Assembly: GCA_964016885.1 (NCBI GenBank)
Contig: OZ024743.1
Span: 53,630,001-53,694,000 of the forward strand
From: Eledone cirrhosa
Taxonomy: Eukaryota
Direction: 5' to 3'
DNA: 64,000 nucleotides
The position numbers and the translations under genes are program-made. The notes under the pieces are model-generated. The model worked only from the letters and a program-made list of their open reading frames with translations, ran no database searches and was not told the origin of the DNA. Shown piece by piece: positions 191 to 58,126 of this stretch (position 1 is its first letter; the number at the start of each line of letters is the position of its first letter).

Positions 191-300
<110 letters not shown>

Positions 301-302
301 TG

Positions 303-875
303 TATCCCAGTACAACCTGTCTCATGGTCGGGTCGTTGGCGACTAAACTGGCAACCCCACCAAGATTTCTTGGTGAGGAGGGTGACTTTGGACATCCTGC
401 AGGACTAAAAACAAAACTTGTCAAAGGGCAAAGGAGCTCTTAAGAGTCAATGGCCATCCAAAATCACCGGGAGAGATAACCCCTTAGCCTTTGTCAGGGC
501 AGAATTCTAGGAGAAGGAAAACTCTGATATAACACCTGCAACACTGATGGTATCCAATGATGTTGACTTGTTCTTCTTTTTGGTAAATATCATCTTGGTT
601 AAGAGAGTGGGACTGGCTTTGTGCAGTGCCTTTGCTCACTATAAAAGCTTCACGGCACAGGCATTGCTTTATATCTGGAGATCTCTCTGCACTTGTCGTC
701 ACATGGTACCATGGGCCCAGCACTGTGTCAATAATTGTCACAAGTGTAGTGTTTGTACCAGAGTTTTCAAGTCGCTGGCTGGACTAAAAAGTCACACTCG
801 TTCAGCGCATCGGTAGGGGTTCTCCTACATGGATATAAAGTAGTGGCCGTACTCGAAAACGAGTTGGCAGCCACC
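303..875 (+). mobile_element. Non-autonomous RTE-derived element (RTE 5'UTR-like part fused to C2H2 zinc-finger/3' tail), copy 1
   Basis: Near-identical to 8449-9028(-) and 57584-58126(-). Contains ctaggagaaggaaaactctga (RTE 5'UTR-like) and encodes CSVCTRVFKSLAGLKSHTRSAH*. Lies between (TATG)n and (TA)n. Confidence 0.7.
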
Positions 876-2461: not shown

Positions 2462-5400
2462 GATGGTATGATATGGTATAGTATGGTGTGGTATGGTATG
2501 GTATGGTATGGTGTGGTATGGTATGGTATGGTTGGTATAGTATGGTATGGTGTGGTATGGTATGGTATGGTATAGTATGGTATGGTGTGGTATGGTGTAG
2601 TATGGTATGGTATAGTATGGTATGGTGTGGTATGGTATGGTGTGGTATGGTGTAGTATGGTATGGTATGGTATAGTATGGTATGGTGTGGTATGGTATGG
2701 TGTGGTATGGTGTAGTATGGTATGGTATAGTATGGTATGGTGTGGTATGGTATGGTGTGGTATAGTATGGTATGGTGTGGTATGGTATGGTATGGTATAG
2801 TATGGTATGGTGTGGTATGGTGTAGTATGGTATGGCATGGTATAGTATGGTATGGTGTGGTGTAGTATGGTATGGTATGGTATGGTATGGTGTAGTATGG
2901 TATGGTGTGGTATGGTATGGTGTGGTATAGTATGGTATGGGATGGTATGTCATGGTATGGTATGGTGTGGTATAGTTTGGTATGGTATGGTGTGGTATAG
3001 TTTGGTATGGTATGGTGTGGTGTAGTATGGTGTGGTATGGTATGGTATGGTGTGGTATGGTGTGGTATGGTATGGTGTGGTATGGTATGGTATAGTATGG
3101 TATGGTGTGGTATGGTATGGTGTGGTATGTTGTGATATGGTATGGTATGGTGTGGTGTGGTGTGGTATGGTATGGTGTGGTATGGTGTGGTATGGTATAA
3201 TATGGTGTGGTATGGTATGGTATGATATGGTGTGGTATGGTATGGTATGGTATGGTATGGTGTGGTATGGTATGATATGGTGTGGTATGGTATGATATGG
3301 TATGATATGGTGTGGTATGGTATATGGTGTGGTATGGTATGGTGTGGTATGGTATGGTGTGGTGTGGTATGGTATGGTATGGTGTGGTATGGTGTGGTAT
3401 GGTATGGTGTGGTATGGTATGGTATGGTATTGTGTGGTGTGGTATGGTATGGTGTAGTATGGTATGGTGTGGTGTGGTATGGTGTGGTGTGGTATGGTAT
3501 GGTATGGTGTAGTATGGTATGGTATTGTGTGGTGTGGTGTGGTGTGGTATGGTGTGGTGTGGTATGGTATGGTGTGGTGTGGTATGGTATGGTATGGTAT
3601 GGTATGGTATGGTATGGTATGGTATTGTGTGGTGTGGTATGGTATTGAATGGTGTGGTATGGTGTGGTGTGGTATGGTATGGTATGGTGTGGTATGGTAT
3701 GGTATTGTGTGGTGTGGTGTGGTATGGTATTGTGTGTTGTGGTGTGGTGTGGCATGGTATGGTATGGTATTGTGTGGTGTGGTGTGGTGTGGTGTGGTAT
3801 GGTATGGTGTGGTATGGTGTGGTGTGGTGTGGTATGGTATGGTGTGGTGTGGTGTGGTGTGGTATGGTGTGGTGTGGTATGGTATGGTGTGGTGTGGTGT
3901 GGTGTGGTATTGTGTGGTGTGGTGTGGTGTGGTGTGGTGTGTTGTGGTGTGGTATGGTATGGTATGGTGTGGTATGGTATGGTATTGTGTGTTGTGGTGT
4001 GGTGTGGTATGGTATGGTATCGTGTGGTATGTTGTGATATGGTATGGTATGGTGTGGTATGGTATGGAGTGATATGGTATGGTATGGTGTGGTATGGTGT
4101 GGTATGGTATGGTGTGGTATGGTGTGGTATGGTATGGTATGGTGTGGTATGCTATGGTGTGGTGTGGTGTGGTGTGGTGTGGAATGGTATGGTATGGTGT
4201 GGTATGTTGTGATATGGTATGGTATGGTGTGGTATGGTATGGAGTGATATGGTGTGGTATGGTATGGTATGGTATGGTGTGGTATGGTATGGTGTGGTAT
4301 GTTGTGATATGGTATGGTATGGTGTGGTATGGTATGGAGTGATATGGTGTGGTATGGTGTGGTATGGTGTGGTATGGTATGGTATGGTATGGTGTGGTAT
4401 GGTATGGAGTGATATGGTGTGGTATGGTATGGTATGGTGTGGTATGGTATGGTGTTGTATGGTATGGTATGGTATGGTGTGGTATGGTATGGTGTGGTAT
4501 GTTGTGATATGGTATGGTATGATGTGGTATGGTATGGCGTGATATGGTGTGGTATGGTATGGTATGGTTTGGTATGGTATGGTATGGTATGGTTTGGTAT
4601 GGTATGGTGTGGTATGGTATGGAGTGATATGGTATGGTATGGTTTGGTATGGTATGGTGTGGTATGGTATGGTATGGTATGGTTTGGTATGGTATGGTAT
4701 GGTATGGTATGGTATGGTATGGTATGGTATGGTTTGGTATGGTATGGTATGGTATGGTATGGTATGGTATGGTATGGTATGGTATGGTATGGTATGGTAT
4801 GGTATGGTATGGTTTGGTATGGTATGGTATGGTATGGTATGGTATGGTATGGTATGGTATGGTGTGGTATGGTATGGTATGGTATGGTTTGGTATGGTAT
4901 GGTATGGTATGGTATGGTATGGTATGGTATGGTATGGTATGGTATGGTATGGTATGGTTTGGTATGGTATGGTATGGTATGGTATGGTATGGTATGGTAT
5001 GGTATGGTGTGGTATGGTGTAGTATGGTATGGTGTAGTATGATATGGTATGGTATGGAGTGATATGGTGTGGTATGGTATGGTATGGTATGGTTTGGTAT
5101 GGTGTGGTATGTTGTGATATGGTATGGTATGATGTGGTATGGTATGGAGTGATATGGTGTGGTATGGTATGGTATGGTATGGAGGGGAATTGTTGAGAGT
5201 ATTCCAACTTACAAGATCGAATGATGATAAAGTTATCTAAAAGTGTGCAGAGATCCTCTTCCCATGCTGTAGGTTGTGATTATGTTGTTAACATTAAAAA
5301 AAAAGAAAAGAATTTCTTTTTTTGTGGTATGGTATGGTGTGGTGTGGTATGGTATGGTGTAGTATGGTATGGTATTGTGTGGTGTGGTGTGGTGTGGTAT

Positions 5401-6582
5401 GGTGTGGTGTGGTATGGTATGGTGTGGTGTGGTATGGTATGGTATGGTATGGTATGGTATGGTATTGTGTGGTGTGGTATGGTATTGAATGGTGTGGTAT
5501 GGTGTGGTGTGGTATGGTATGGTATGGTGTGGTATGGTATGGTATTGTGTGGTGTGGTGTGGTATGGTATATGGTGTGGTATGGTGTGGTATGGTATGGT
5601 ATGGTGTGGTATGGTATGGTGTTGTATGGTATGGTATGGTATGGTATGGTGTGGTATGGTATGGTGTGGTATGTTGTGATATGGTATGGTGTGGTATGGT
5701 ATTGAATGGTGTGGTATGGTGTGGTGTGGTATGGTTTGGTATGGTGTGGTATGGTATGGTATTGTGTGGTGTGGTGTGGTATGGTATTGTGTGTTGTGGT
5801 GTGGTGTGGCATGGTATGGTGTTGTATGGTATGGTATGGTATGGTATGGTGTGGTATGGTATGGAGTGATATGGTGTGGTATGGTATGGTGTGGTATGGT
5901 ATGGTATGGTATGGTATGGTATGGTATGGTATGGTGTGGTATGGTATCGTGTGGTATGTTGTGATATGGTATGGTATGGTATGTTATGCTATCGTGTGGT
6001 ATGTTGTGATATGGTATGGTATGGTGTGGTATGGAGTGATATGGTGTGGTATGGTATGGTATGGTGTGGTATGGTATGGTATCGTGTGGTATGTTGTGAT
6101 ATGGTATGGTGTGGTATGGTATGGAGTGATATGGTATGGTATGGTGTGGTATGGTATGGTATGGTATGGTGTGGTTTATTGTGATATGGTATGGTATGGT
6201 GTGGTATGGTATGGTATGGTATGGTGTGGTATGGTATGGTATGGTATGGTTTGGTATGGTGTGGTATGTTGTGATATGGTATGGTATGATGTGGTATGGT
6301 ATGGAGTGATATGGTGTGGTATGGTATGGTATGGTATGGTTTGGTATGGTGTGGTATGTTGTGATATGGTATGGTATGATGTGGTATGGTATGGAGTGAT
6401 ATGGTGTGGTATGGTATGGTATGGTATGGTTTGGTATGGTGTGGTATGTTGTGATATGGTATGGTATGATGTGGTATGGTATGGAGTGATATGGTGTGGT
6501 ATGGTATGGTATGGTATGGTATGGTATGGTATGGTATGTTGTGGTATGGTATGGTATGGTATGGTATGGTATGGTATGGTAT
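2462..6582. repeat. (TGGTA/TGGTG)n pentanucleotide satellite in two blocks (2462-5182, 5324-6582)
   Basis: Direct inspection. Variant landmarks (tattgtgt, tattgaat, ggcatgg, ggagtgat) recur in both blocks. All MVWYG/HTIPY ORFs derive from this array. Confidence 0.97.
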
Positions 6583-6724
6583 GGAGGGGAATTGTTGAGA
6601 GTATTCCAACTTACAAGATCGAATGATGATAAAGTTATCTAAAAGTGTGCAGAGATCCTCTTCCCATGCTGTAGGTTGTGATTATGTTGTTAACATTAAA
6701 AAAAAAGAAAAGAATTTCTTTTTT
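5180..6724. repeat. Identical ~143-bp non-satellite segment duplicated (5180-5323 = 6582-6724), 1402-bp period
   Basis: ggaggggaattgttgagagt...gaatttctttttt present twice. Confidence 0.92.
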
Positions 6725-8448: not shown

Positions 8449-9028
8449 ATACGGCCACTACTTTATATCCATGTAGGAGAACCCCTACCGGTGCGCTGAA
8501 CGAGTGTGACTTTTTAGTCCAGCAACTTGAAAACTCTGGTACAAACACTACACCTGTGACAATTATTGACACATAGTGCTGGGCCCATGGTACCATGTGA
8601 CGACAAGTGCAGAGAGATCTCCAGATATAAAGCAATGCCTGTGCTGTGAAGCTTTTATAGTGAGCAAAGGCACTGCACAAAGCCAGTCCCTCTCTCTTAA
8701 CCAAGATGATATTTACCAAAAAGAAGAACAAGTCAACATCATTGGATACCATCAGGGTTGCAGGTGTTATATCAGAGTTTTCCTTCTCCTAGAATTCTGC
8801 CTTGACAAAGGCTAAGGGGTCATCTCTCCCGGTGATTTTGGATGGCCATTGACTCTTCAGAGCTCCTTTGCCCTTTGACAGGTTTTGTTTTTAGTCCTGC
8901 AGGATGTCCAAAGTCACCCTCCTCACCAAGAAACCTTGGTGGGGTTGCCAGTTTAGTCGCCAACGACCCGACCATGAGACAGGTTGTACTGGGATACATG
9001 TTACCAGTAGCACCAACTGGTGACCTGA
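8449..9028 (-). mobile_element. Non-autonomous RTE-derived element, copy 2
   Basis: Reverse complement of 303-850 with a slightly longer 5' end, abutting (TACA)n. Confidence 0.75.
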
Positions 9029-12035: not shown

Positions 12036-12307
12036 ATCGACGAGGTTGTGTTTGCATTTCATTCTTCTGTCAATCAAGTATCAATCAAGTAGTGAGTTCG
12101 ATTTAAGGAGGATAATTGTCAGAATTGTTGGGGATGTCGGATTAAATGCCGCAGTCTTTGTTCCGACACTCTACGTTCCAAGATCAAATCTAGTCGAGAA
12201 ACTGAATAGTGTGCTATATATAAAATAGCGCACAAACCATGTGCGCTATTTTATATATAGCACACTATTCAGTTTCTTAATATACTTAGAAGTGTCTAGG
12301 ATAATTC

Positions 12308-12385
12308 ATCACCCACTGATGAGCTTGAATTGGTAATTCTATTCACAATTAACATTGCGAAACAACAACAAGTTGTCTGGGTGAT
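12308..12385 (+). ncRNA. Type I hammerhead ribozyme (canonical core)
   Basis: ATCACCCA-CTGATGA-GC..GC-GAAA-CAAC aacaa GTTG-TC|TGGGTGAT: 8-bp stem I, intact core, GUC cleavage after 12377. Confidence 0.85.
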
Positions 12386-13052
12386 TGGTAGTTACCACAA
12401 TTCCGGTTTGTATTTATTTTCTTGATTTATTCTTAAATTGAGTCTGGCAAACCCTATTGTCTATAGTTAGTATCCTTTTCACCTTAGCGAATCCGCTCCC
12501 TTACGATTTGAACACATATATGTATATGTCTGTGTTCGTTTTTCTTTTATACTCTATTACGGCTCGGAAATATCTCTTTCTTAGAGCTATTTTGTTGTAA
12601 GAGACTATTTTGAGTTCCTAACTCAATATATACCTTTGATATATACCTGTGATATATATATATATATATATATTTCTCTTTCTCTCTCTCCACCTCTCTC
12701 TCTATCTATCTATCTTTAACTCCCTCTCTTGAAGAAATCGGCTGTGTTCCAACGTGGAGAAGGTTGGGCTCGACCAGGTATAAAAGACTCAAGATTTGTC
12801 GTATGTCAGGACGTATGTCTTTTGTTTTTGTTTTTTTAATTGTTGGACTCGTGACTAAACTAGGAGCATATTACAGAATGGTTGTGCAAGAGATTTGGCT
12901 ATTAAATCTAGCAAGTTGATCTTTGACTGGTCGTAATCTGACTCTGACGCGCCTTCAGTGTTCTTTATAGTGGATACAGGAAATCTCATCAACCACACCA
13001 AAAGAACTGAAATTTTGCCTTCTTCTTGAAGCTGCTGTAGTTGCTGCTGTTG

Positions 13053-18381: not shown

Positions 18382-18411
<30 letters not shown>

Positions 18412-18418
<7 letters not shown>

Positions 18419-19072
18419 TGTATATATAGTGTATTTTGCAATACACTCTATGCTTAATTAAAAGCATTTCGAAAAGCTTATGCTATTGTTATAGAGTAGT
18501 GACAGACTCACATACTTTAATTTTCAGCAAACAGGGGAGATAAAGCTGATAAGCATCAATAAATGCGAAACAGGGTCTTGTCAGCTTGATCTCCCCTGTT
18601 TGTTGAAAATTAAAGTAAGTGAGTCTGTCACTACTCTAAAACAATAGCATAAGGTCTTCGAAATGCTTTTAATTAAGCATACAGTGTATTGAAAAATACA
18701 CTATATATACATTCATATATATATATAGCTATTTCAGAGCACCAATTCTAATTTTCAATTTCTGCTTGACCGGCAACTGCTCTGTATAATCAGTTCCTGA
18801 TTATTTACTAGAATTCTATAAGAACCAAACATCCATGATTTCAGGAAACAGGAGGAGTAGTTGGCTTTGATAAGCATCAATAAATGCGAAACAGGGCCTT
18901 GTCAGCTTTATCTCCCCTGTTTGCTGAAAGTTAAAGTAAGTGAGTCTGTCACTACTCTAAAACAATAGCATAAGGTCTTCGAAATGCTTTTAATTAAGCA
19001 TACAGTGTATTGCAAAATACACTATATATACATTCATATATATATAGCTATTTCAGAGCACCAATTCTAATT
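18412..19072 (+). mobile_element. PLE/retrozyme-like non-coding element: inverted arm plus two tandem HHR-bearing units (~321-bp period)
   Basis: 18412-18553 is the reverse complement of 18577-18717; 18547-18756 is repeated at 18868-19072; (TA)n on both sides. Confidence 0.7.
18846..18922 (+). ncRNA. Type I hammerhead ribozyme, U3-A8 covariant core
   Basis: GGCT-TTGATAA-GCAT caataa ATGC-GAAA-CAGG gc CTTG-TC|AGCT; stem I extended by GGAG/CTCC and AAACAGG/CCTGTTT. Confidence 0.75.
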
Positions 19073-41454: not shown

Positions 41455-42860
41455 CGTGTTAAAAATGTCTAGAGATGAAGATAAGGTAGAAATCCTATGG
41501 CTAATGTTGGGAATAAGATTTTTTTAAACTATAGGGGGATGGCAAGACTCTTTGTGTATATATCTAAGATTTTCGTTAGGTTTATGATAAGGTTTAAAAG
41601 AGGCAGTAAGTAGATCAAGATTAATGTCAAGAAAGTTAGCATTGGTAAGGTTCGTATCTATAGTAATTTTAAGGTTAAGATTAGCAAAAGTATTGATTAA
41701 ATCTTTACGGAATTTATCAAGGTTATGGCCGTTGGTTATGGCCGTTGGTGAGAAACTGCCAATCCGTCGTCACGGTATAAACCGATATCATGGGAAGGAA
41801 ATTTCTCTTTAAGGGTGTGGAGAAGGAATAATCCTACTAAGTCACACACATCCGCACTGTCATATGAACCCATTGCAACATCAAAAGAGTTTTCAGGGTT
41901 TGACTTTTTAACCCAAATACTTTCATTAGTAAAGAGTAGAGTTTTCCTAGCATGAAAGATAATGTCTTCTTCAAATTTAGAAATATTAATGAAGAGTCTT
42001 TGAAAATCTAAGGCTTTAGTTAATAAGGAAACAGTAATAGAGGGGTAAAAATCAACAATATCAAATTGGGTAAATCTACACTTATTTTTACCTTGTATAT
42101 TATTAAACGAAGAAATAACAGAGGATGTATTTAACCATTGTGATAAGTCAGTCTTAGTTCTAATTTTGAGAATTATTTTTCTTAAGATTTTTTTACTTGC
42201 AAGGCCAACTTCGGATTTAGCCGGGTTAATCAGTCTACAGCTAGGTCGATTAGTAAAGTCTAATTTATGGTCTTTAAGGGTAATATATTCTTTACGTTTA
42301 GCCAGGCTTTCAATCCGGTTGAATATTTTTAAAGAACTAGCTAGTTATTTAGCTTCTATATTAATAGTATTGTAGGTGTTATTATTAGTTAATTGATATT
42401 TGTTGGTGATACTATTAGTTAAAAGTTGGTTATACAAAATACTATTAACTTCAAAGAGATTTTTAGTTTTATCGGAAAGAACAAAAGTGTTTGTAGAATT
42501 TTTAAAATTAGAAATATCGTTAGACAGTTTAGTTTGAAAATTATTATTGTACTTACGAAATTTTATATCACTAATTAAATTAACAAGCTCTAATTCGAAG
42601 TTGGCTATGTCTTTAATTCTAGGTGGGTATTTACGGGATTTTATGTCAAAACAATCATTTGTATCAGCACTGAATAGTCCATTGTAAACCATTGCCTTCG
42701 ATCTCATTCTTTTAACGACTTGTTCGGTTTTCTCTATAAACAGTTTGGTATAAATTGTGTTGGAAGGAGTAGGTATATTTTTGATTGAATAATCCAATTC
42801 ATAAAGGTCCATGGTGTATGTTGGTTGAATTCCTGAAAACTGTAGAGTGCTCAACTAATC
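41455..42860 (-). pseudogene. Penelope-like element ORF (N-terminus + RT + thumb), frameshifted, 3'-truncated
   Basis: YSIKNIPTPS...KRMR, DKTKN, ITLKDHK..CRLINPAKSE, QFDIVDFYPSI, FDVAMGSYD, IGLYRDDG, NFLD, YIH..S.HPP. Confidence 0.88.
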
Positions 42861-43016
42861 GGGCTGGAAAGTTCCAATCATATATGTAATATAGAATATG
42901 TTTCAATCAATCCCGGTTGGAGCTGTATAAATGAAGTAATTCCGTCGGAAAGGTCCAGGAAAAAAGAGTGCTCTATGTAGGTTACAAAGCTTAATAGTTA
43001 TGTAATAACAATTATT

Positions 43017-43076
<60 letters not shown>

Positions 43077-43241: not shown

Positions 43242-43370
43242 AAAGTTATATTTAAAATTGTTGGGTTACAACTAGTAAATATTTATAACTGATATAAAAG
43301 CACTCGACAAATATTTGGAGTATATTTACAATATTAAATAAATGGAAACTATATTTATAAAACCATATTT

Positions 43371-43434
43371 ATTTCATTATATATATTTCAGGGATATCAT
43401 ATTAACAATATGCTATGCCTTCCTCAGACAAAAT
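43371..43434 (-). ncRNA. Type I hammerhead ribozyme (minus-strand mirror copy)
   Basis: Exact reverse complement of 43596-43659. Confidence 0.72.
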
Positions 43435-43595
43435 ACAATATAAACAGTTTTATAGATAAATAGATTCGACATACCGTAACAACATCGACTTGCATTTGAA
43501 GAGGTTGATTTGACTGCCAAATCAACCTCTTCAAATGCAAGTCGATGTTGTTACGGTATATCGAATCTATTTATCTATAAAACTGTTTATATTGT

Positions 43596-43659
43596 ATTTT
43601 GTCTGAGGAAGGCATAGCATATTGTTAATATGATATCCCTGAAATATATATAATGAAAT
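43596..43659 (+). ncRNA. Type I hammerhead ribozyme with palindromic stem III
   Basis: ATTTTGT-CTGAGGA-AGG..CATATT gtt AATATG..CCT-GAAA-TATATA-TA|ATGAAAT. Confidence 0.72.
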
Positions 43660-44221
43660 AAATATGGTTTTATAAATATAGTTTCCATTTATTTAATATT
43701 GTATATATATATATATATATATATACACAGACACACACATACACACACACAGACACACACACACATGTATATATATATATAATCTAATTTTTCAACCTAT
43801 TATTATAAGTATTGTAATCAAAACGTAATGAAACCTGCATTATAAATATTATTCTTTCACGTTAATCTTATTTCATCTTATTTCTTCTTTCACTTAGATA
43901 TACTTACGCTGTGTATATTTCTCGTTTGAAACTTATTTCTTCATGCACGCTATCTTCACTATCAATATGTATAATCGTTCTTTATTTCCTCTTCTATCTT
44001 TCTCCTTTTTTTTTTTCTCTCTCCCTTACATATCATCTTCTTCCAACAGTTTAATTTAAATAAACCGTTATCTTTTCAACCTTTCGGACACTCAGTTGCA
44101 TACTCACTCATAACTTTGTATTACAATCAATAAATGTAATATCTCCACTATTCAGGAAGCTCCAACCGTTAAGGTTGTCTTTTTTCCGGGTATGTCAATA
44201 TTTATTTATAAAACAAATGTG

Positions 44222-44287: not shown

Positions 44288-44325
44288 AATATGGCTTTAC
44301 AAATATAGTTTCCATTTATTAATAT

Positions 44326-44363
<38 letters not shown>

Positions 44364-44484
44364 TCTAGATTGCGGTTTTGGGACTCCTCTATAAGTCGGC
44401 GAAGGCAGAGAATCTGGCTAAGTGTTGATCTACCTCTCCTAAATCCATTCTGGTTGTTACGAAGGATTGGCTCAAGAAATGGGA

Positions 44485-44540
<56 letters not shown>

Positions 44541-44544
<4 letters not shown>

Positions 44545-45769
44545 TCCCATTTCTTGAGCCAATCCTTCGTAACAACCAGAATGGATTTAGGAGAGGTAGA
44601 TCAACACTTAGCCAGATTCTCTGCCTTCGCCGACTTATAGAGGAGTCCCAAAACCGCAATCTAGACCTTGCACTCATCTTTGTTGATTTTTCAAAAGCCT
44701 TCGACTCAGTTGACAGGTCGGGGATGTTTGAAATTCTACAACTCTATGGGATTCCTGATAAAATCATCGCGGCCATACGTGTAATGTGTACAGATACCAA
44801 ATCAACTGTCCTGACCCCAGATGGGGAAACACCACCTTTCTCAATCCTCGCTGGAATTTTACAGGGCGATACCCTTGCTCCGTATCTATTTATCATTGTT
44901 GTGGATTATGTTTTGCGCATGTCTGTGGATAGGATTCAGGATAGGGGATACCAACTACAGCCTAGGAGAAGCTCACGCTACCCAGCAAAATACTTGACCG
45001 ACACCGACTTTGCTGACCACATCGCATTGATCAGTCGGTCACTGGAAAATGCTGAGAGTCTTTTGAAGTCATTAGAGCAAGCGTCCAACTGTGTTGGACT
45101 GTACCTCAACGAATCCAAGACTGAGTATGTGAACAGATGCGCAGACAGCCCAAACTACCCCATCAGAACCCTTAATGGTACCACCCTTAAGCAAGTGGAA
45201 GATTACAAGTATCTTGGCTCATATATCTCCTCCTCCAAAAAGGATTTTCTAACCAGGAAGGGTATGGCATGGTCAGCATGCAATGACATGCACGCCATAT
45301 GGACATCTCAACTTACCAACAAGCTAAAACTGGCAATATTCCAAGCAACCATTAAGCCCATATTACTTTATGGATCCGAAACTTGGACACTAACATCACA
45401 ACTTGAGAGGAGATTGGATGGCACATATACCCGCCTCTTAATGAGAGTGCAAAACCTATCCTGGAAACGACATCCCACCTTGTCTAAAATCTATGGCAAA
45501 CTCCCTCGAGCCTCTGCCCTTCTAAAATCCCGGAGAGCCCAATTTGCTGGCCACTGTCACCGTGCCAGAAATGAAATCATATCCGCTCTCTTGCTCTGGA
45601 ACCCTGACTCCAGCCTGACTAGGAGTAGGAAGCTGTCATTCCCTGACGTTATCTCTAGGGATACGGGAATCAGTAGACAGGACCTGTAGACAGCGATGGG
45701 GGACAGGGAATTCTGGGGCATGAGAGTGAGATCCATCATCTCGACAGTAGTCGACGAGTGATGATGATG
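44541..45769 (+). mobile_element. 5'-truncated RTE(-X)-clade LINE, RT domain open over 44541-45689
   Basis: NQNGFRRGRST, FVDFSKAFDSV, GILQGDTLAPYLF, DFADH (catalytic D->H), YKYLGS, LLYGSETWTL; tail (TGA)n then (TA)n. Confidence 0.92.
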
Positions 45770-50304: not shown

Positions 50305-50777
50305 AAATATATATATATATACATATATTTCGTTTCTGAATTTGTTTAGCAAGATTCTTTATCTGAAAACGTGTGTTGAAACCGATATTGTTATACTTCG
50401 GGAGGGTGATGTTGCCAATAAGCAACACACGCACCAGTTACTTTCAATTCAATTTATTATAATAAATTTATAAATTTAGGAATTTATAAATTTCCGGTTG
50501 GTTGGTTCCACAACCAGACGATTGTTTATATATTGTCAAAGTTCTTTCGTCACACATTCTGTGACCTCTTCAGTGCCTGGGATTCTTTTCTTTGTTTTTG
50601 TGCCTCTCCTTTGTTCTGTCCCACGCTATCTTGTTTCTGTGTGTGTGTTGTGTGCTCAGTCTGCGCATGCGCCACATCCGGGTGTCTGTGTGTGTTTATA
50701 TTCGTTTATTTATTTGTTCATTTACATGTTACTGGTTGGTTGTTTGTTCTATGTGCGTGTGTGTTTTCATTTTGTTC

Positions 50778-51311
50778 TTAATTGTAAGTTGTGATGTTGC
50801 TGTTCCACTCATGTTTTCTATTTAATTTTGGTTGTAATTCTTTTATGTTTATTGTCTCTGTGATTTGTCTAAATATTGCGTCTTTTCTGTGTGTAGATTC
50901 TATTTTTATTTCTATGTTCTCTAATTTACCCTTATGTTCTATTTTAGCATGTTGGTAGAGTACAGATGATTCTTTACTATCTTGAAGGTCTCGCCAGTGT
51001 TCATTTATCCGTTCCCCTACACTACGAGCTGTCTCACCTATGTACACTATATTTTTATCTCTACATTGTCCTTCAGTATATCTTATGCTATATACTACAT
51101 TTCTAGTTTTACAGTTAATATGGGGGCTTAATTTACAGGTTATACATTTCTTATCTATACAGGGGGGTCTTTGAAAAGGGTATGTCTTGCTAATAAGTGT
51201 TTTTATGGAGGTACCTGGTCTTTCTACTATCTTAATATTGAGTTTATGTTTATCTAGGGCCCTTCTAAATTTGTAAGCTAATTCACCTCTAGGGGTTGTA
51301 TCGATGAACAT
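50778..51311 (-). CDS. PLE GIY-YIG endonuclease domain (fragment of a frameshifted polyprotein)
   Basis: CIDKKCITC..C, NVVYSI, YIGETARSVGERINEH, S.LYQH...H, RQITE..I....PKLN.K.EW. Confidence 0.8.
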   Translation of the reverse strand: MFIDTTPRGELAYKFRRALDKHKLNIKIVERPGTSIKTLISKTYPFQRPPCIDKKCITCKLSPHINCKTRNVVYSIRYTEGQCRDKNIVYIGETARSVGERINEHWRDLQDSKESSVLYQHAKIEHKGKLENIEIKIESTHRKDAIFRQITETINIKELQPKLNRKHEWNSNITTYN

Positions 51312-51821
51312 TACACTCTGGTATTTATTGCTATCATACCATGAGTTTATTCTATTAGTCTTATTCCTAGTTCTTTCTATTCTATTCTAAAATTTGCTCC
51401 TATACAAGGGGCAGGTCCCATTTGTATCATTATTTACCATTTTTTCCCATTTGGTTCTGGGTCCTCTATACACTCTGATTTTATCTCTCTGATTGTAACC
51501 AGAGAACTGCATACGGTGGATGAAGTGTTGTATGTGTCTCTCTAGTTCTTCGGGGTTGCACATGCGGGACACGTTTCTCATCACCCGTACCAAATCCGCA
51601 ATCAGAATGTTTATTTTGGTATGGTCCGAAACAGCTGAGTTTCGTTGGATCAGATCTTTGGAAGTCATGGGTTTGGCATAATGGGAATGGAGGATTTGTT
51701 TTTTGTTATTAATGGTATCTAACCAGAGCTCTGTGTCTAGTACAAGTAATCGATGGTTGGGGTGTTTGCTTGGGTAGTCTATAGTAACTCTAATACTCTG
51801 GTGGATGGAGTTAGCTATTTG

Positions 51822-52433
51822 CTAGATGCTTTCCATTGTGTTTTTCTCTAATTCCTGACTGTTCTCTAGTGGGGGTGTTTTAACTACGATGTTTATATCA
51901 TCAACGTAGCGGGAGTGCATTATCAGGGTTAAGGGGTCTTCTAATTGTTCTTTAAGTTTAAGTTTACGTCTACTGTCCCACCATACCATGAATAAGTTAG
52001 CTATGTCGCCTGCAATGCTAACACCAATGGCTGCTCCCTCCTCTTGGGCATATGTTTTTCCATTAAATTTGAACATATGTTCCTTAAGGGTTAATTTTAT
52101 GCTGGCTCCCACCGCATGTGCAATCATTTTCTTTAGTTCATCGTGGTTTTCGGGGGTCCGTATGGCTCTGGTCCACCCGTTCCATCTATCTGTGTGGGTT
52201 TTCTTGGCCATTGAGGTAATGGTAGGTGGTCTGCCGCTTGCTGGTCTTGTAGGGCACAGGTTGCTAAGGTCATATGCGTCTAGATAATTATTACTATAGG
52301 TAAGTTTAAGTAGGAGTCCCAGCTCACTGGTATCAATCCCACGGAACTCAACATTGCTCTCACTGATCATTTCTACGCATTTCTCCACAGCAAAATCCAC
52401 GTCAATAGATGGATACAGGGACACAACATCCAT
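51822..52433 (-). CDS. PLE reverse transcriptase core (fragment)
   Basis: SMDVVSLYPSI, FKFNGKTYAQEEGAAIG, ANLFM, RYVDD. Confidence 0.8.
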   Translation of the reverse strand: MDVVSLYPSIDVDFAVEKCVEMISESNVEFRGIDTSELGLLLKLTYSNNYLDAYDLSNLCPTRPASGRPPTITSMAKKTHTDRWNGWTRAIRTPENHDELKKMIAHAVGASIKLTLKEHMFKFNGKTYAQEEGAAIGVSIAGDIANLFMVWWDSRRKLKLKEQLEDPLTLIMHSRYVDDINIVVKTPPLENSQELEKNTMESI

Positions 52434-54122
52434 ACTACCTATTATGCAGTTTGTTAGGTCCCTAGATCGGTTACTCTCGCCGATTCTGCTGAGGAGGTCC
52501 TCCGTGCTGTCACATACATCTGGGACATTTCAATGATGGGGCGTATGATCAAGGAGAGGAAGTAGGACAGTCTGTAGTTACTAGCAATGTTAGCTCCAAA
52601 GACTGGCCGTGTTGGTGGTCCCGTGACAGGGTCACTGCCCGTTTTATGGTCTTTTCGAAGCCCATACAACGCTGGCACGTCATTGTTCCAGGCCTGGAAG
52701 TTGTTGGCAGTCTTTTTGTTGGGCTGCATTATATTTGTCCACATCACCATATGGGCATTGAGGGCTTTTTCTCTATCCTCATGCTCTTGTGGTGTTACTT
52801 CTCTTGTGTTAGTGATGTGGGGTTGCATTGCCTGGATGTAGTTTGGCAGATTGTCAACCGACATTATGCCAGACTTGTCTGTTGGAAAGCATGCTATCCC
52901 TCCATTACGCGAGCGCTGCATGAGCTTACGCAAGCCATTTGCAGATTTTTCTCCCAGTTGCTGGGCCTCCATTCTATTATGCTTCTTGCTATACTGTTCT
53001 ATAATATTTCTAAGTTTAGATCTAGCTATACTAAATTGTGCTTCTGTTTGTTCTTCGACCTGCGACGGCAATTGCGTGCGTTTGTTAAAAGCTAAAGTCG
53101 TGGCGTGGACTTGTCGCAGGTCGAACGATTTATCGGAGGGATTATAAAAAGTAGACTTCCAGGCTGCTGCTTTATGTGTACTAGTGCTATTGTTCTTGTT
53201 AGTTGTGTTGTTTCTATTTCTATTCCCACCAAAAGCCTCATGATTGTTTCTATGTCTCTCATTATTACTCCCGTCTCTTTCCTCTGGCTCATTGTTATTA
53301 TCTATTCTATTTTGTGTGTCTGTGTGTTTGTTAAGATTGTGGTGGTGGTGAGAGGCATTGGATGTGTGTGTGTGTGTTGTTGTTGTTGATGTGTGTGTTG
53401 TTGATGTGTGTTGTTGTTGTTGTCTCCGTGTATGTTATTATTGTTGTGTGTGTTGTTATTGTTGTTTGTGTCTGCGTGTCTGTTGTTGTTGTTTCTGAGT
53501 ATGTTATTATTGTTGATGTGTGTGTTGTTATTGTTGTTTGTGTCTGTGTGTCTGTTGTTGTTGGGATGTGTGTTGTATATGTGTGTGTGTGTGTGCGTAT
53601 GTTGTTACTTTTGTTTTTGTTTTTGTTTTTGTTTTTGTTTTTGTTTTTGAGGCTCCAACGTAATTTTGTAAATGATTTTTCTATTTCTGACAAACATCTA
53701 ATCATATTTACCTTATTGAATGTGGCATACTTAGGCGGCAGTTGTAATACAGATAATTCATCAGAGTCGACCGTAGTGTTGCCGTATATATTTGTGTTGT
53801 TGTTGCTGAATTCATCTGTTAATGAGATGTCGGCCATATTTAGAAGGGCCCTAGATAAACATAAACTCAATATTAAGATAGTAGAAAGACCAGGTACCTC
53901 CATAAAAACATTTATTAGCAAGACATACCCTTTTCAAAGACCCCCCTGTATAGATAAGAAATGTATAACCTGTAAATTAAGCCCCCATATTAACTGTAAA
54001 ACTAGAAATGTAGTATATAGCATAAGATGTACTGAAGGACAATGTAGAGATAAAAATATAGTGTACATAGGAGAGAATTTACTGCTCTTTCTAGCACACA
54101 AGTACTCTTGGCTATAACATAT

Positions 54123-57583: not shown

Positions 57584-58126
57584 GGTGGCTGCCAACTCGT
57601 TTTCGAGTACGGCCACTACTTTATATCCATGTGGGAGAAGAACCCCTACCGATGCGCTGATTGTGTGACTTTTTAGTCCAGCCAGCGGCTTGAAAACACT
57701 GGTACAAACACTACACTTGTGACAATTATTGACACATAGTGTTGGGCCCATGGTACCATGTGATGACAAGTGCAGAGAGATCTCCAGATATAAAGCAATG
57801 GCTGTGCCGTGAAGATTTTATAGTGAGCAAATGCACTGCACAAAGCCAGTCCCACTCTCTTAACCAAGATGATATTTACCAAAAAGAAGAACAAGTCAAC
57901 ATCATTGGATACCATCAGAGTTGCAGGTGTTATATCAGAGTTTTCCTTCTCCTAGAATTCTGCCTTGAGAAAGGCTAAAGGGTCATCTCTCCCAGTGATT
58001 TTGGATGGCCATTGACTCTTAAGAGCTCCTTTGTCCTTTGACAGGTTTTGTTTTTAGTCCTGCAGGATGTCCAAAGTCACCCTCCTCACCAAGAAACCTT
58101 GGTGGGGTTGCCAGTTTAGTCGCCAA
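57584..58126 (-). mobile_element. Non-autonomous RTE-derived element, copy 3
   Basis: Reverse complement of 336-875; (TA)n on both sides. Confidence 0.75.

What the first reader, a model, noticed from the sequence alone, without database searches (positions are those of the whole stretch)
12198..12520. Canonical hammerhead preceded by a perfect 37-bp-arm hairpin
Seen: gaaactgaatagtgtgctatatataaaatagcgcaca-aacca-tgtgcgctattttatatatagcacactattcagtttc (12198-12276). An HHR follows with 8-bp stem I, intact CUGAUGA/GAAA core, a real 4-bp stem III and a GUC site (12308-12385), then a ~130-bp tail ending at ATATATG. Unlike minimal PLE HHRs, stem III looks stable enough for monomeric cleavage (inference). 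It would be the best test candidate in the window.
Basis: partly seen in the sequence, partly recalled or inferred. Interest (0 to 1): 0.75.

Follow-up and report, generated by a model that had tools for sequence, protein, structure and literature searches.

The report
Pseudoknotted hammerhead in Penelope-type repeat
This is one truncated copy of an abundant non-coding jumping repeat in an animal genome; its hammerhead self-cutting RNA motif is real and is likely braced by an extra knotted helix, while the eye-catching perfect hairpin is most likely a by-product of how this one copy was inserted.

Summary
The hairpin and the hammerhead are both at the stated places. They belong to a 5'-truncated copy (12237-12642, not ending at 12520) of a 509-nt non-coding repeat with about 2,400-2,500 search candidates in this 3.0-Gb animal genome. 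Copies form head-to-tail partial tandems, end at two fixed points in (TA)n, and 28 of 51 carry a 5' inverted segment: the footprint of Penelope-like elements (PLEs). The hairpin is this copy's own 5' inversion; no other sampled copy has the same short arm. The hammerhead is real: stems I and III covary across four sister families. It is not canonical. Stem II has two Watson-Crick pairs plus U-U, and the 5' leader is predicted to pair with loop II as a pseudoknot (102 of 112 pairs in register versus 42-68 when slid). Stem III is long enough for monomer cleavage to be plausible. This copy is a poor test candidate: a private 3-nt deletion weakens its pseudoknot (-3.9 versus -9.7 kcal/mol). Cleavage, expression and the mobilising PLE were not shown. 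Verdict: a retrozyme-type non-autonomous PLE with a pseudoknotted type I hammerhead; moderate interest.

The parts
12197..12234 (-). Left hairpin arm: inverted duplicate of unit positions 97-134, specific to this copy
12235..12239 (.). 5-nt hairpin loop; junction of the inverted and forward segments
12237..12642 (+). 5'-truncated copy (unit positions 94-509) of a 509-nt non-coding repeat, family A; 11 substitutions in 406 positions from the family majority, plus a 3-nt and a 7-nt deletion
12269..12303 (+). Initiator-like TCAGTT and DPE-like GGATA at +29 to +33; candidate internal promoter (lead only; consensus recalled; same spacing within 1 nt in families B and C, absent from D)
12302..12308 (+). 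Pseudoknot 5' strand (leader of stem I), shortened here by a private 3-nt deletion
12309..12315 (+). Stem I 5' strand (7 bp; an eighth pair with A12308 competes with the pseudoknot)
12316..12322 (+). Catalytic core CUGAUGA
12323..12358 (+). Domain II: stem II (G-C, C-G, U-U; 12323-12325 with 12356-12358), pseudoknot 3' strand 12326-12332, then a linker
12359..12377 (+). GAAA, stem III (A-U plus 4 bp, 5-nt non-palindromic loop) and GUC; predicted cut after C12377
12378..12385 (+). Stem I 3' strand
12560..12588 (+). CGGCTC...GAGCT stem-loop directly after the first common 3' end point (unit position about 426); a second copy opens the unit, after the other end point (509)
12633..12672 (+). 3' end of the unit at 12642, running into a short duplication and (TA)n
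12103..12196 (+). Left flank: old dispersed repeat cut off at the outer edge of the hairpin, with no (TA)n on this side

Best explanation
The stretch is a 5'-truncated copy of a 509-nt non-coding repeat that is likely a non-autonomous Penelope-like element (a retrozyme); it carries a type I hammerhead predicted to be braced by a pseudoknot, and the perfect hairpin is likely an insertion by-product of this copy. Shown: the family, its tandem and inverted layout, the two end points in (TA)n, the lack of an ORF, and covariation of stems I and III and of the leader/loop II helix. Inferred: (1) tandem copies are transcribed, and the hammerhead cuts after GUC as a monomer, with stems I and II held parallel by a helix of 6-10 bp or more between the 5' leader and the strand that leaves stem II; (2) a PLE protein supplied in trans cuts (TA)n DNA and starts reverse transcription inside the RNA, just 5' of either CGGCTC...GAGCT stem-loop; (3) the cDNA runs through the hammerhead cut site, so the template is a religated circle or an uncut multimer; (4) priming from the second DNA strand, or fold-back of the cDNA, adds an inverted 5' arm, which in this copy abuts the forward copy and is only 38 bp long, probably after loss of its outer part.
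For: Family: 2385 and 2515 first-look candidates; no long ORF in six frames of families A and B. Of 51 distinct loci (60 fetched, 9 duplicates dropped): 24 partial tandems, 28 with an abutting 5' inversion, 48 ending at unit position about 426 (19) or about 509 (29); 24 longer than one unit; 4 cross the cut site twice. Families B and D show the same two ends about 80 nt apart. Of 30 loci taken by position from a motif search, 26 have the unit's own 3' end upstream, 3 an inverted copy and 1 (TA)n; none has an ORF end. Same-locus inverted arms share minority alleles with the forward copy (84 of 399) more often than copies at different loci do (4250 of 71880). Hammerhead: stem I sequences differ among the four families and stay paired, with two-sided changes within families C and D; D has the U3-A8 core. 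Pseudoknot: 102 of 112 pairs in register against 42-68 for slides of 1-3 nt; first four pairs 61 of 64 against a mean of 48.5 and a maximum of 58 in 20,000 partner swaps; five pair types at position 1; helix 91.0% paired with 2 two-sided pairs in 25 aligned copies. Literature: PLE partial tandems, 5' inverted copies, tails and (TA)n bias (PMC8557442); two internal RT start sites defining the tail (PMC11167929); pseudoknots in about 40% of hammerheads, one active with a 1-bp stem II (PMC3088659).
Against: No cleavage or RNA data. No autonomous PLE with a homologous terminal repeat was found among 30 GIY-YIG loci, 19 longer PLE stretches and 12 loci of a second PLE family. Without the pseudoknot the hammerhead fold is 4.0 kcal/mol above the minimum, and the stem II closing pair has probability 0.002. 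In one search two of the five measures did not beat the shuffles (pairs with two-sided change 73 of 500; further pair types 431 of 500). The subtypes are related and were hand-picked, and the stem I length was set by eye, so the controls are not probabilities. The family B pseudoknot is weak against shuffles (202 of 2000). The tail is about 83 nt, longer than the 30-40 bp reported for PLEs. Both family A searches favoured copies that span the cut site, which biases the 5'-end test. One public contig continues differently beyond the left arm.
Confidence: 0.75

Rival explanations
1. The unit is the terminal repeat (pLTR) of an autonomous PLE, and the copies are solo or truncated pLTRs rather than a non-autonomous element.
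For: The same insertion signature as autonomous PLEs (PMC8557442); PLE ORFs are abundant here (10,595 GIY-YIG candidates; 27,953 for a second family). Only a few percent of the candidates were examined.
Against: Where sequence upstream of unit position 1 belongs to the element, it is the unit's own 3' end (24 tandems among 51 loci; 26 of 30); family D has full dimers and a near-trimer; no ORF; no homologous pLTR in the PLE loci examined.
Confidence: 0.08
2. The hammerhead is real but works only as a dimer or with protein help, like other animal PLE hammerheads; the long stem III and the pseudoknot do not give efficient monomer cleavage.
For: Misfold 4.0 kcal/mol below the hammerhead fold; stem III strands can pair between molecules (-7.2 kcal/mol in A, -15.6 in B); cDNAs always run through the cut site; the anole PLE hammerhead cuts only with protein (PMC11167929); 8 of 9 Xenopus retrozyme dimers did not cut (10.64898/2026.07.22.740005); an axolotl hammerhead with U-U in helix II cuts weakly as a monomer (PMC7229834).
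Against: Stem III keeps 4-7 pairs with two-sided changes and mostly non-palindromic loops, and is about 25 bp in family D; fungal PLE hammerheads with a large helix III cut as monomers (PMC4209133).
Confidence: 0.3
3. The hairpin is a functional RNA element coupled to the ribozyme (for example a small-RNA precursor or a protective 5' structure).
For: Perfect arms and very stable folding (z -9.9); weak matches to miRNA precursor models.
Against: Present in this form in 1 of 51 loci; inversions elsewhere differ in position and length; the Rfam scores are far below the gathering thresholds (46.5 against 96.2 bits at best); perfect hairpins are common at repeats here; the candidate transcription start lies inside the right arm (lead only).
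Confidence: 0.05
4. The centre of the hairpin is an assembly artefact, or one of two alleles, rather than a fixed genomic structure.
For: In public contigs of one sample, one contig leaves the left arm through 9 other letters and joins position 12456; no listed contig spans the loop.
Against: The flank-to-left-arm junction is matched without differences in all 3 runs; contigs break at repeats and a hole proves nothing; three other family loci show fold-back junctions.
Confidence: 0.12

Closest known systems
Metazoan non-LTR retrozymes (Cervera and de la Pena 2020, PMC7229834, parts 2-3 of 6 read; Li et al. 2026, 10.64898/2026.07.22.740005, parts 1-3 of 5 read)
   Same: Non-coding AT-rich unit with one type I hammerhead, head-to-tail copies, many dispersed monomers, co-occurrence with PLEs; the circularised unit folds better than shuffles (z -4.2, 30 shuffles).
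   Different: Unit of about 500-570 nt against 170-400 nt for invertebrates; mostly partial tandems with 5' inversions rather than long arrays; long stem III and a predicted pseudoknot instead of a 1-2 bp stem III and loop-loop contacts; circular RNA not shown; no parent pLTR found.
Penelope-like elements, Neptune/Naiad-type insertion pattern (Craig et al. 2021, PMC8557442, passages; Frangieh et al. 2024, PMC11167929, parts 1-2 of 4; Schostak et al. 2008, PMC2377424, passages)
   Same: 5' truncation, partial tandems, an inverted truncated copy at the 5' end, two 3' end points defining an optional tail, (TA)n targets, a hammerhead near the 3' end.
   Different: No ORF; the tail is about 80 nt rather than 30-40 bp and starts with a second copy of the stem-loop that opens the unit.
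Minimal PLE hammerheads and the long-helix-III hammerheads of fungal and protist PLEs (Cervera and de la Pena 2014, PMC4209133, parts 1-2 of 4)
   Same: Type I order; G10.1-C11.1; the U3-A8 core variant in sister family D; a large helix III as in fungal and protist PLEs.
   Different: Animal PLE hammerheads there have no or a tiny palindromic helix III, a 7-8 bp helix II and a 4-5 bp helix I; here helix I is 7-8 bp, helix II 2-3 bp and helix III 5-7 bp or more.
Pseudoknotted hammerheads (Perreault et al. 2011, PMC3088659, passages on 'pseudoknot' only; figures not seen)
   Same: A base-paired contact between the stem I and stem II regions replaces loop-loop contacts; compatible with a very short stem II; reported for all three types, including the human C10orf118 hammerhead.
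   Different: Here it joins the 5' tail of stem I to loop II over up to 10 or more pairs, in a high-copy animal retroelement family; the passages read do not place such a pseudoknot in PLEs or retrozymes.

Membership tests
Type I hammerhead ribozyme | Core CUGANGA, GAAA and UH at a three-way junction, with stem I open | tested here: met
   core intact in 42 of 55 family A copies and 25 of 26 family D copies
Type I hammerhead ribozyme | Three helices supported by covariation | tested here: met
   Stems I and III each have 3 pairs with two-sided changes; stem II G-C and C-G are near-invariant, and its third pair is A-U in 15 of 25 and unpaired in 10
Type I hammerhead ribozyme | Self-cleavage after H17 | not testable with these tools
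   needs in vitro transcription
Type I hammerhead ribozyme | Match to an Rfam hammerhead model | tested here: not met
   the long domain II probably defeats the models
Canonical metazoan type I hammerhead (6-bp I, 4-bp II, 1-2 bp III) | Helix sizes and loop 1-loop 2 contacts | tested here: not met
   7-8 bp I, 2-3 bp II, 5 bp or more III
Pseudoknotted hammerhead | Watson-Crick helix between the stem I tail and loop II, conserved with compensation | tested here: met
   weak for family B alone; related sequences
Pseudoknotted hammerhead | The pseudoknot is needed for fast cleavage | not testable with these tools
   needs disruption and rescue mutants
Non-LTR retrozyme | Non-coding unit with a type I hammerhead in head-to-tail copies | tested here: met
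   two complete hammerheads in tandem in 1 of 51 family A loci (L023) and in several family D loci
Non-LTR retrozyme | Expressed as unit-length linear and circular RNA | not testable with these tools
   no RNA run was available to lay
Non-autonomous Penelope-like element | PLE insertion signature: 5' truncation, partial tandem, 5' inversion, optional tail, (TA)n target | tested here: met
Non-autonomous Penelope-like element | Homology to the pLTR of an autonomous PLE | tested here: inconclusive
   none among 30 + 19 + 12 PLE loci, a small part of tens of thousands of candidates
Autonomous PLE | RT plus GIY-YIG ORF | tested here: not met
miRNA or hairpin-RNA gene | Conserved precursor hairpin | tested here: not met
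   1 of 51 loci; Rfam scores far below thresholds

The most novel reading that the evidence does not exclude
A superfamily of several thousand animal retrozymes uses a fast, monomer-competent, pseudoknotted type I hammerhead, and a duplicated CGGCTC...GAGCT stem-loop is the cis signal that tells a PLE reverse transcriptase where to start. The families would then be a natural covariation set and a minimal RNA substrate for testing how PLE enzymes copy circular RNA.
Probability: 0.35. Interest if true: 0.6.

Novelty: new variant of a known kind. Interest (0 to 1): 0.4.

Why it matters
Animal PLE hammerheads are described as minimal, slow, and dependent on dimers or protein, and their role in transposition is open. 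A family with a stable helix III and a covarying pseudoknot would give a clean substrate to ask whether cutting and circularisation feed PLE-driven copying. The repeated stem-loop after both end points is a concrete candidate for the RT start signal. The hairpin itself matters little: it records the insertion event. Retrozymes, PLE inversions and pseudoknotted hammerheads are each known; only the combination was not found in the papers searched.

Tried and rejected
Rfam: no hammerhead hit; miRNA hits rejected as generic hairpin matches. A loop-closing distal stem I (leader with the 3' tail) was considered; the leader stays similar across families while the 3' tail does not, and the leader covaries with domain II instead. 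Pile-up of 5' ends at the cut site (unit 237/238): 1 of 88 within 233-243, so no sign of linear cut RNA as template; the sampling is biased. A-to-G editing excess among rare substitutions in family A: none (A>G 4.6, T>C 5.6 per 1000). Search for the autonomous partner: sister-family copies next to Neptune-type ORFs proved to be separate insertions in (TA)n; the pLTRs of a 938-aa Neptune-type element and of a 714-aa family carry unrelated hammerheads. Sequencing runs: no RNA holder listed. The hairpin loop is not covered by any listed contig, which proves nothing; the continuation of the contigs beyond the left arm remains unexamined. Literature searches 'Penelope-like + hammerhead + octopus', 'octopus + hammerhead ribozyme', 'Penelope + pseudoknot + hammerhead + retrotransposon' and a five-term retrozyme/cephalopod search listed no description of this family. 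Repbase, Dfam, subscription journals, Lunse et al. 2017, and all figures and supplements were not seen and could hold one. Earlier scan notes by sequence, by words and near the window: none.

Full report
Observation. The inverted repeat is perfect, with 37-bp arms around AACCA, and extends by one pair to 12197-12277. Rfam did not recognise it, and the unconstrained fold is not the hammerhead. The window comes from a 3.0-Gb, microsatellite-rich animal genome. An octopus-like host is my guess from recall and was not tested.

What it belongs to. The stretch matches a dispersed family with 2385 and 2515 first-look candidates, 40 scored per search. A full unit is 509 nt (L003). The window holds positions 94-509 at 12237-12642, preceded by positions 97-134 inverted. 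The element therefore does not stop at 12520. The unit has no long ORF. Among 51 distinct loci (60 fetched, 9 duplicates dropped), 24 are partial tandems in which the unit's 3' end runs into its start, 28 have an inverted segment abutting the 5' end, and 48 end at position about 426 (19) or about 509 (29), mostly into (TA)n. Craig et al. (PMC8557442, passages) describe this layout for PLEs. Frangieh et al. (PMC11167929, parts 1-2 of 4) show that the two ends of the optional tail are two internal RT start sites. Both end points here lie directly before a CGGCTC...GAGCT stem-loop, seen in families A, B and C and by eye in D. A pattern for its first copy has 598 exact matches against 0 for the reversed control.

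The hairpin. It is the 5' inversion of this copy. Inversions at other loci differ in position and length. By my reading, 23 of 28 reach one of the two canonical ends, and 4 of 51 loci (the window, L018, L024, L037) are true fold-backs. Same-locus arms share minority alleles with the forward copy in 84 of 399 variable sites, against 4250 of 71880 between loci, as expected if both arms come from one event. The window's arm is short, lacks a (TA)n flank and abuts an old repeat that is cut off there, so loss of the outer part is likely but not shown. Perfect hairpins are common here: 4 in the window and 16 of 175 loci. Public contigs of one sample match the flank-to-arm junction without differences in 3 of 3 runs. 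One contig then continues through 9 other letters to position 12456; this could be another allele or a graph artefact and is unresolved.

The hammerhead. Sister families B, C and D, and further subtypes, share the scaffold but differ in the helices. Stem I stays paired, with two-sided changes between families and within C and D, and D has the U3-A8 core. Stem III keeps 4-7 pairs and is about 25 bp in D. Stem II is short: G-C, C-G and a third pair that is A-U in most subtypes and U-U in the majority of family A, the window included.

The pseudoknot. The nucleotides that follow stem II are complementary to the leader just 5' of stem I. Over 16 hand-picked subtype representatives (stem I set to 7 bp for A and C, 8 bp for B and D), 102 of 112 positions pair in register against 42-68 when slid. 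The first four positions give 61 of 64, against a mean of 48.5 and a maximum of 58 in 20,000 partner swaps, and position 1 shows five pair types. On an alignment of 25 of 88 distinct A-like, B and C copies (B left out because it misaligns), the helix is 91.0% paired with two two-sided pairs. For the whole structure, cells with two-sided change (47 against 15.8), percent paired and the covariation score beat all 500 shuffles, but the two measures that count pairs or types did not (73 and 431 of 500). Against shuffled partners the duplex stands out in A, C and D (9, 5 and 23 of 2000) and not in B (202 of 2000). The sequences are related, so these figures are support and not probabilities. Perreault et al. 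(PMC3088659, passages) report pseudoknots in about 40% of hammerheads of all types, and an active example with a 1-bp stem II.

This copy as a test object. It differs from the family majority at 11 of 406 positions, none in the ribozyme, but lacks unit positions 159-161 in the leader. The pseudoknot duplex drops from -9.7 to -3.9 kcal/mol, and the nested hammerhead fold is 4.0 kcal/mol above a misfold that pairs the core with the stem III 3' strand. Copies with an intact leader are better candidates. Monomer cleavage is plausible: stem III is -2.7 kcal/mol alone with a non-palindromic loop, and long-helix-III fungal PLE hammerheads cut as monomers (PMC4209133, parts 1-2 of 4). It is not assured: an axolotl hammerhead with U-U in helix II is weak (PMC7229834, parts 2-3 of 6), the anole PLE hammerhead needs protein (PMC11167929), and 8 of 9 Xenopus dimers did not cut (10.64898/2026.07.22.740005, parts 1-3 of 5). 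I put the odds at about 0.6 for typical copies and 0.4 for this one.

Mechanism. Inferred: transcription of tandem copies, possibly from an initiator/DPE-like element inside the unit (recalled consensus, absent from D); cutting into unit-length RNA; priming by a PLE RT-endonuclease in trans at (TA)n, starting before either stem-loop; copying through the cut site. For the last step, 24 of 51 insertions exceed one unit, 4 cross the cut site twice, and 1 of 88 5' ends falls within 233-243 (biased sampling). A circle and an uncut multimer fit equally well. The circularised unit folds at z -4.2 against 30 shuffles. The partner was not found among 30, 19 and 12 PLE loci, although PLEs with long open frames exist in the genome.

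Comparison and verdict. It works like a non-LTR retrozyme and meets the sequence-level tests for a non-autonomous PLE; expression, circularity and a parent pLTR are untested or unresolved. It fails the helix sizes of the canonical metazoan type I hammerhead and of the minimal PLE hammerhead. Four literature searches listed no description of the family or of a pseudoknotted PLE or retrozyme hammerhead; Repbase, Dfam, figures, supplements and Lunse et al. 2017 were not seen. Unchecked notes of this scan report the same two-armed, two-ended layout for other families of this genome, so the layout is not special to this finding. Rated a new variant of a known kind, interest 0.4.

Noticed in passing
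window 43321-43709: A 192-bp near-perfect palindrome with a 5-nt loop; each arm carries a hammerhead-like core (CTGAGGA...GAAA), and a related element lies in L218. Another fold-back insertion of a different family.
   Followed up: partly
window 18398-19070: Fold-back plus partial tandem of another repeat with a hammerhead-like motif: U3-A8 core variant and a near-palindromic stem III, near 18866-18903.
   Followed up: no
window 50330-53434 (-) and 53835-54117: Broken Neptune-like PLE (weak RT and GIY-YIG Pfam matches, CxxC linker) with an inverted partial copy, and a hammerhead-like core in its 3' repeat near 50573 on the minus strand.
   Followed up: partly
window 41470-43020 (-): Broken copy of a very abundant PLE-like family (27,953 candidates; many 714-aa open frames elsewhere) whose terminal repeat has its own hammerhead-like motif; Hydra-clade-like by recall only.
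   Followed up: partly
window 44289-45689: RT fragment of a non-LTR element (RVT_1, E 4e-21) with a perfect 154-bp-arm palindrome at 44361-44668 centred on (AT)n.
   Followed up: no
L122, L125, L129 (family D): Full dimers of a unit of about 560 nt; the hammerhead has a U3-A8 core and a stem III of about 25 bp after two U-U mismatches; core intact in 25 of 26 copies.
   Followed up: partly
L167 (G000:C1:145870300-145876600): Neptune-type PLE with a 938-aa open frame between two terminal repeats, each with a minimal U3-A8 hammerhead.
   Followed up: partly
window 12234 and 12456: One public contig joins the end of the left arm, through 9 other letters, to unit position about 322, skipping the hammerhead: a possible second allele.
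   Followed up: no
window 2463-6584: 4-kb array of the pentamer ATGGT.
   Followed up: no
window 300-728, 8571-8999, 57734-58126: Three copies, 96-98% alike, of another dispersed repeat of about 430 bp.
   Followed up: no
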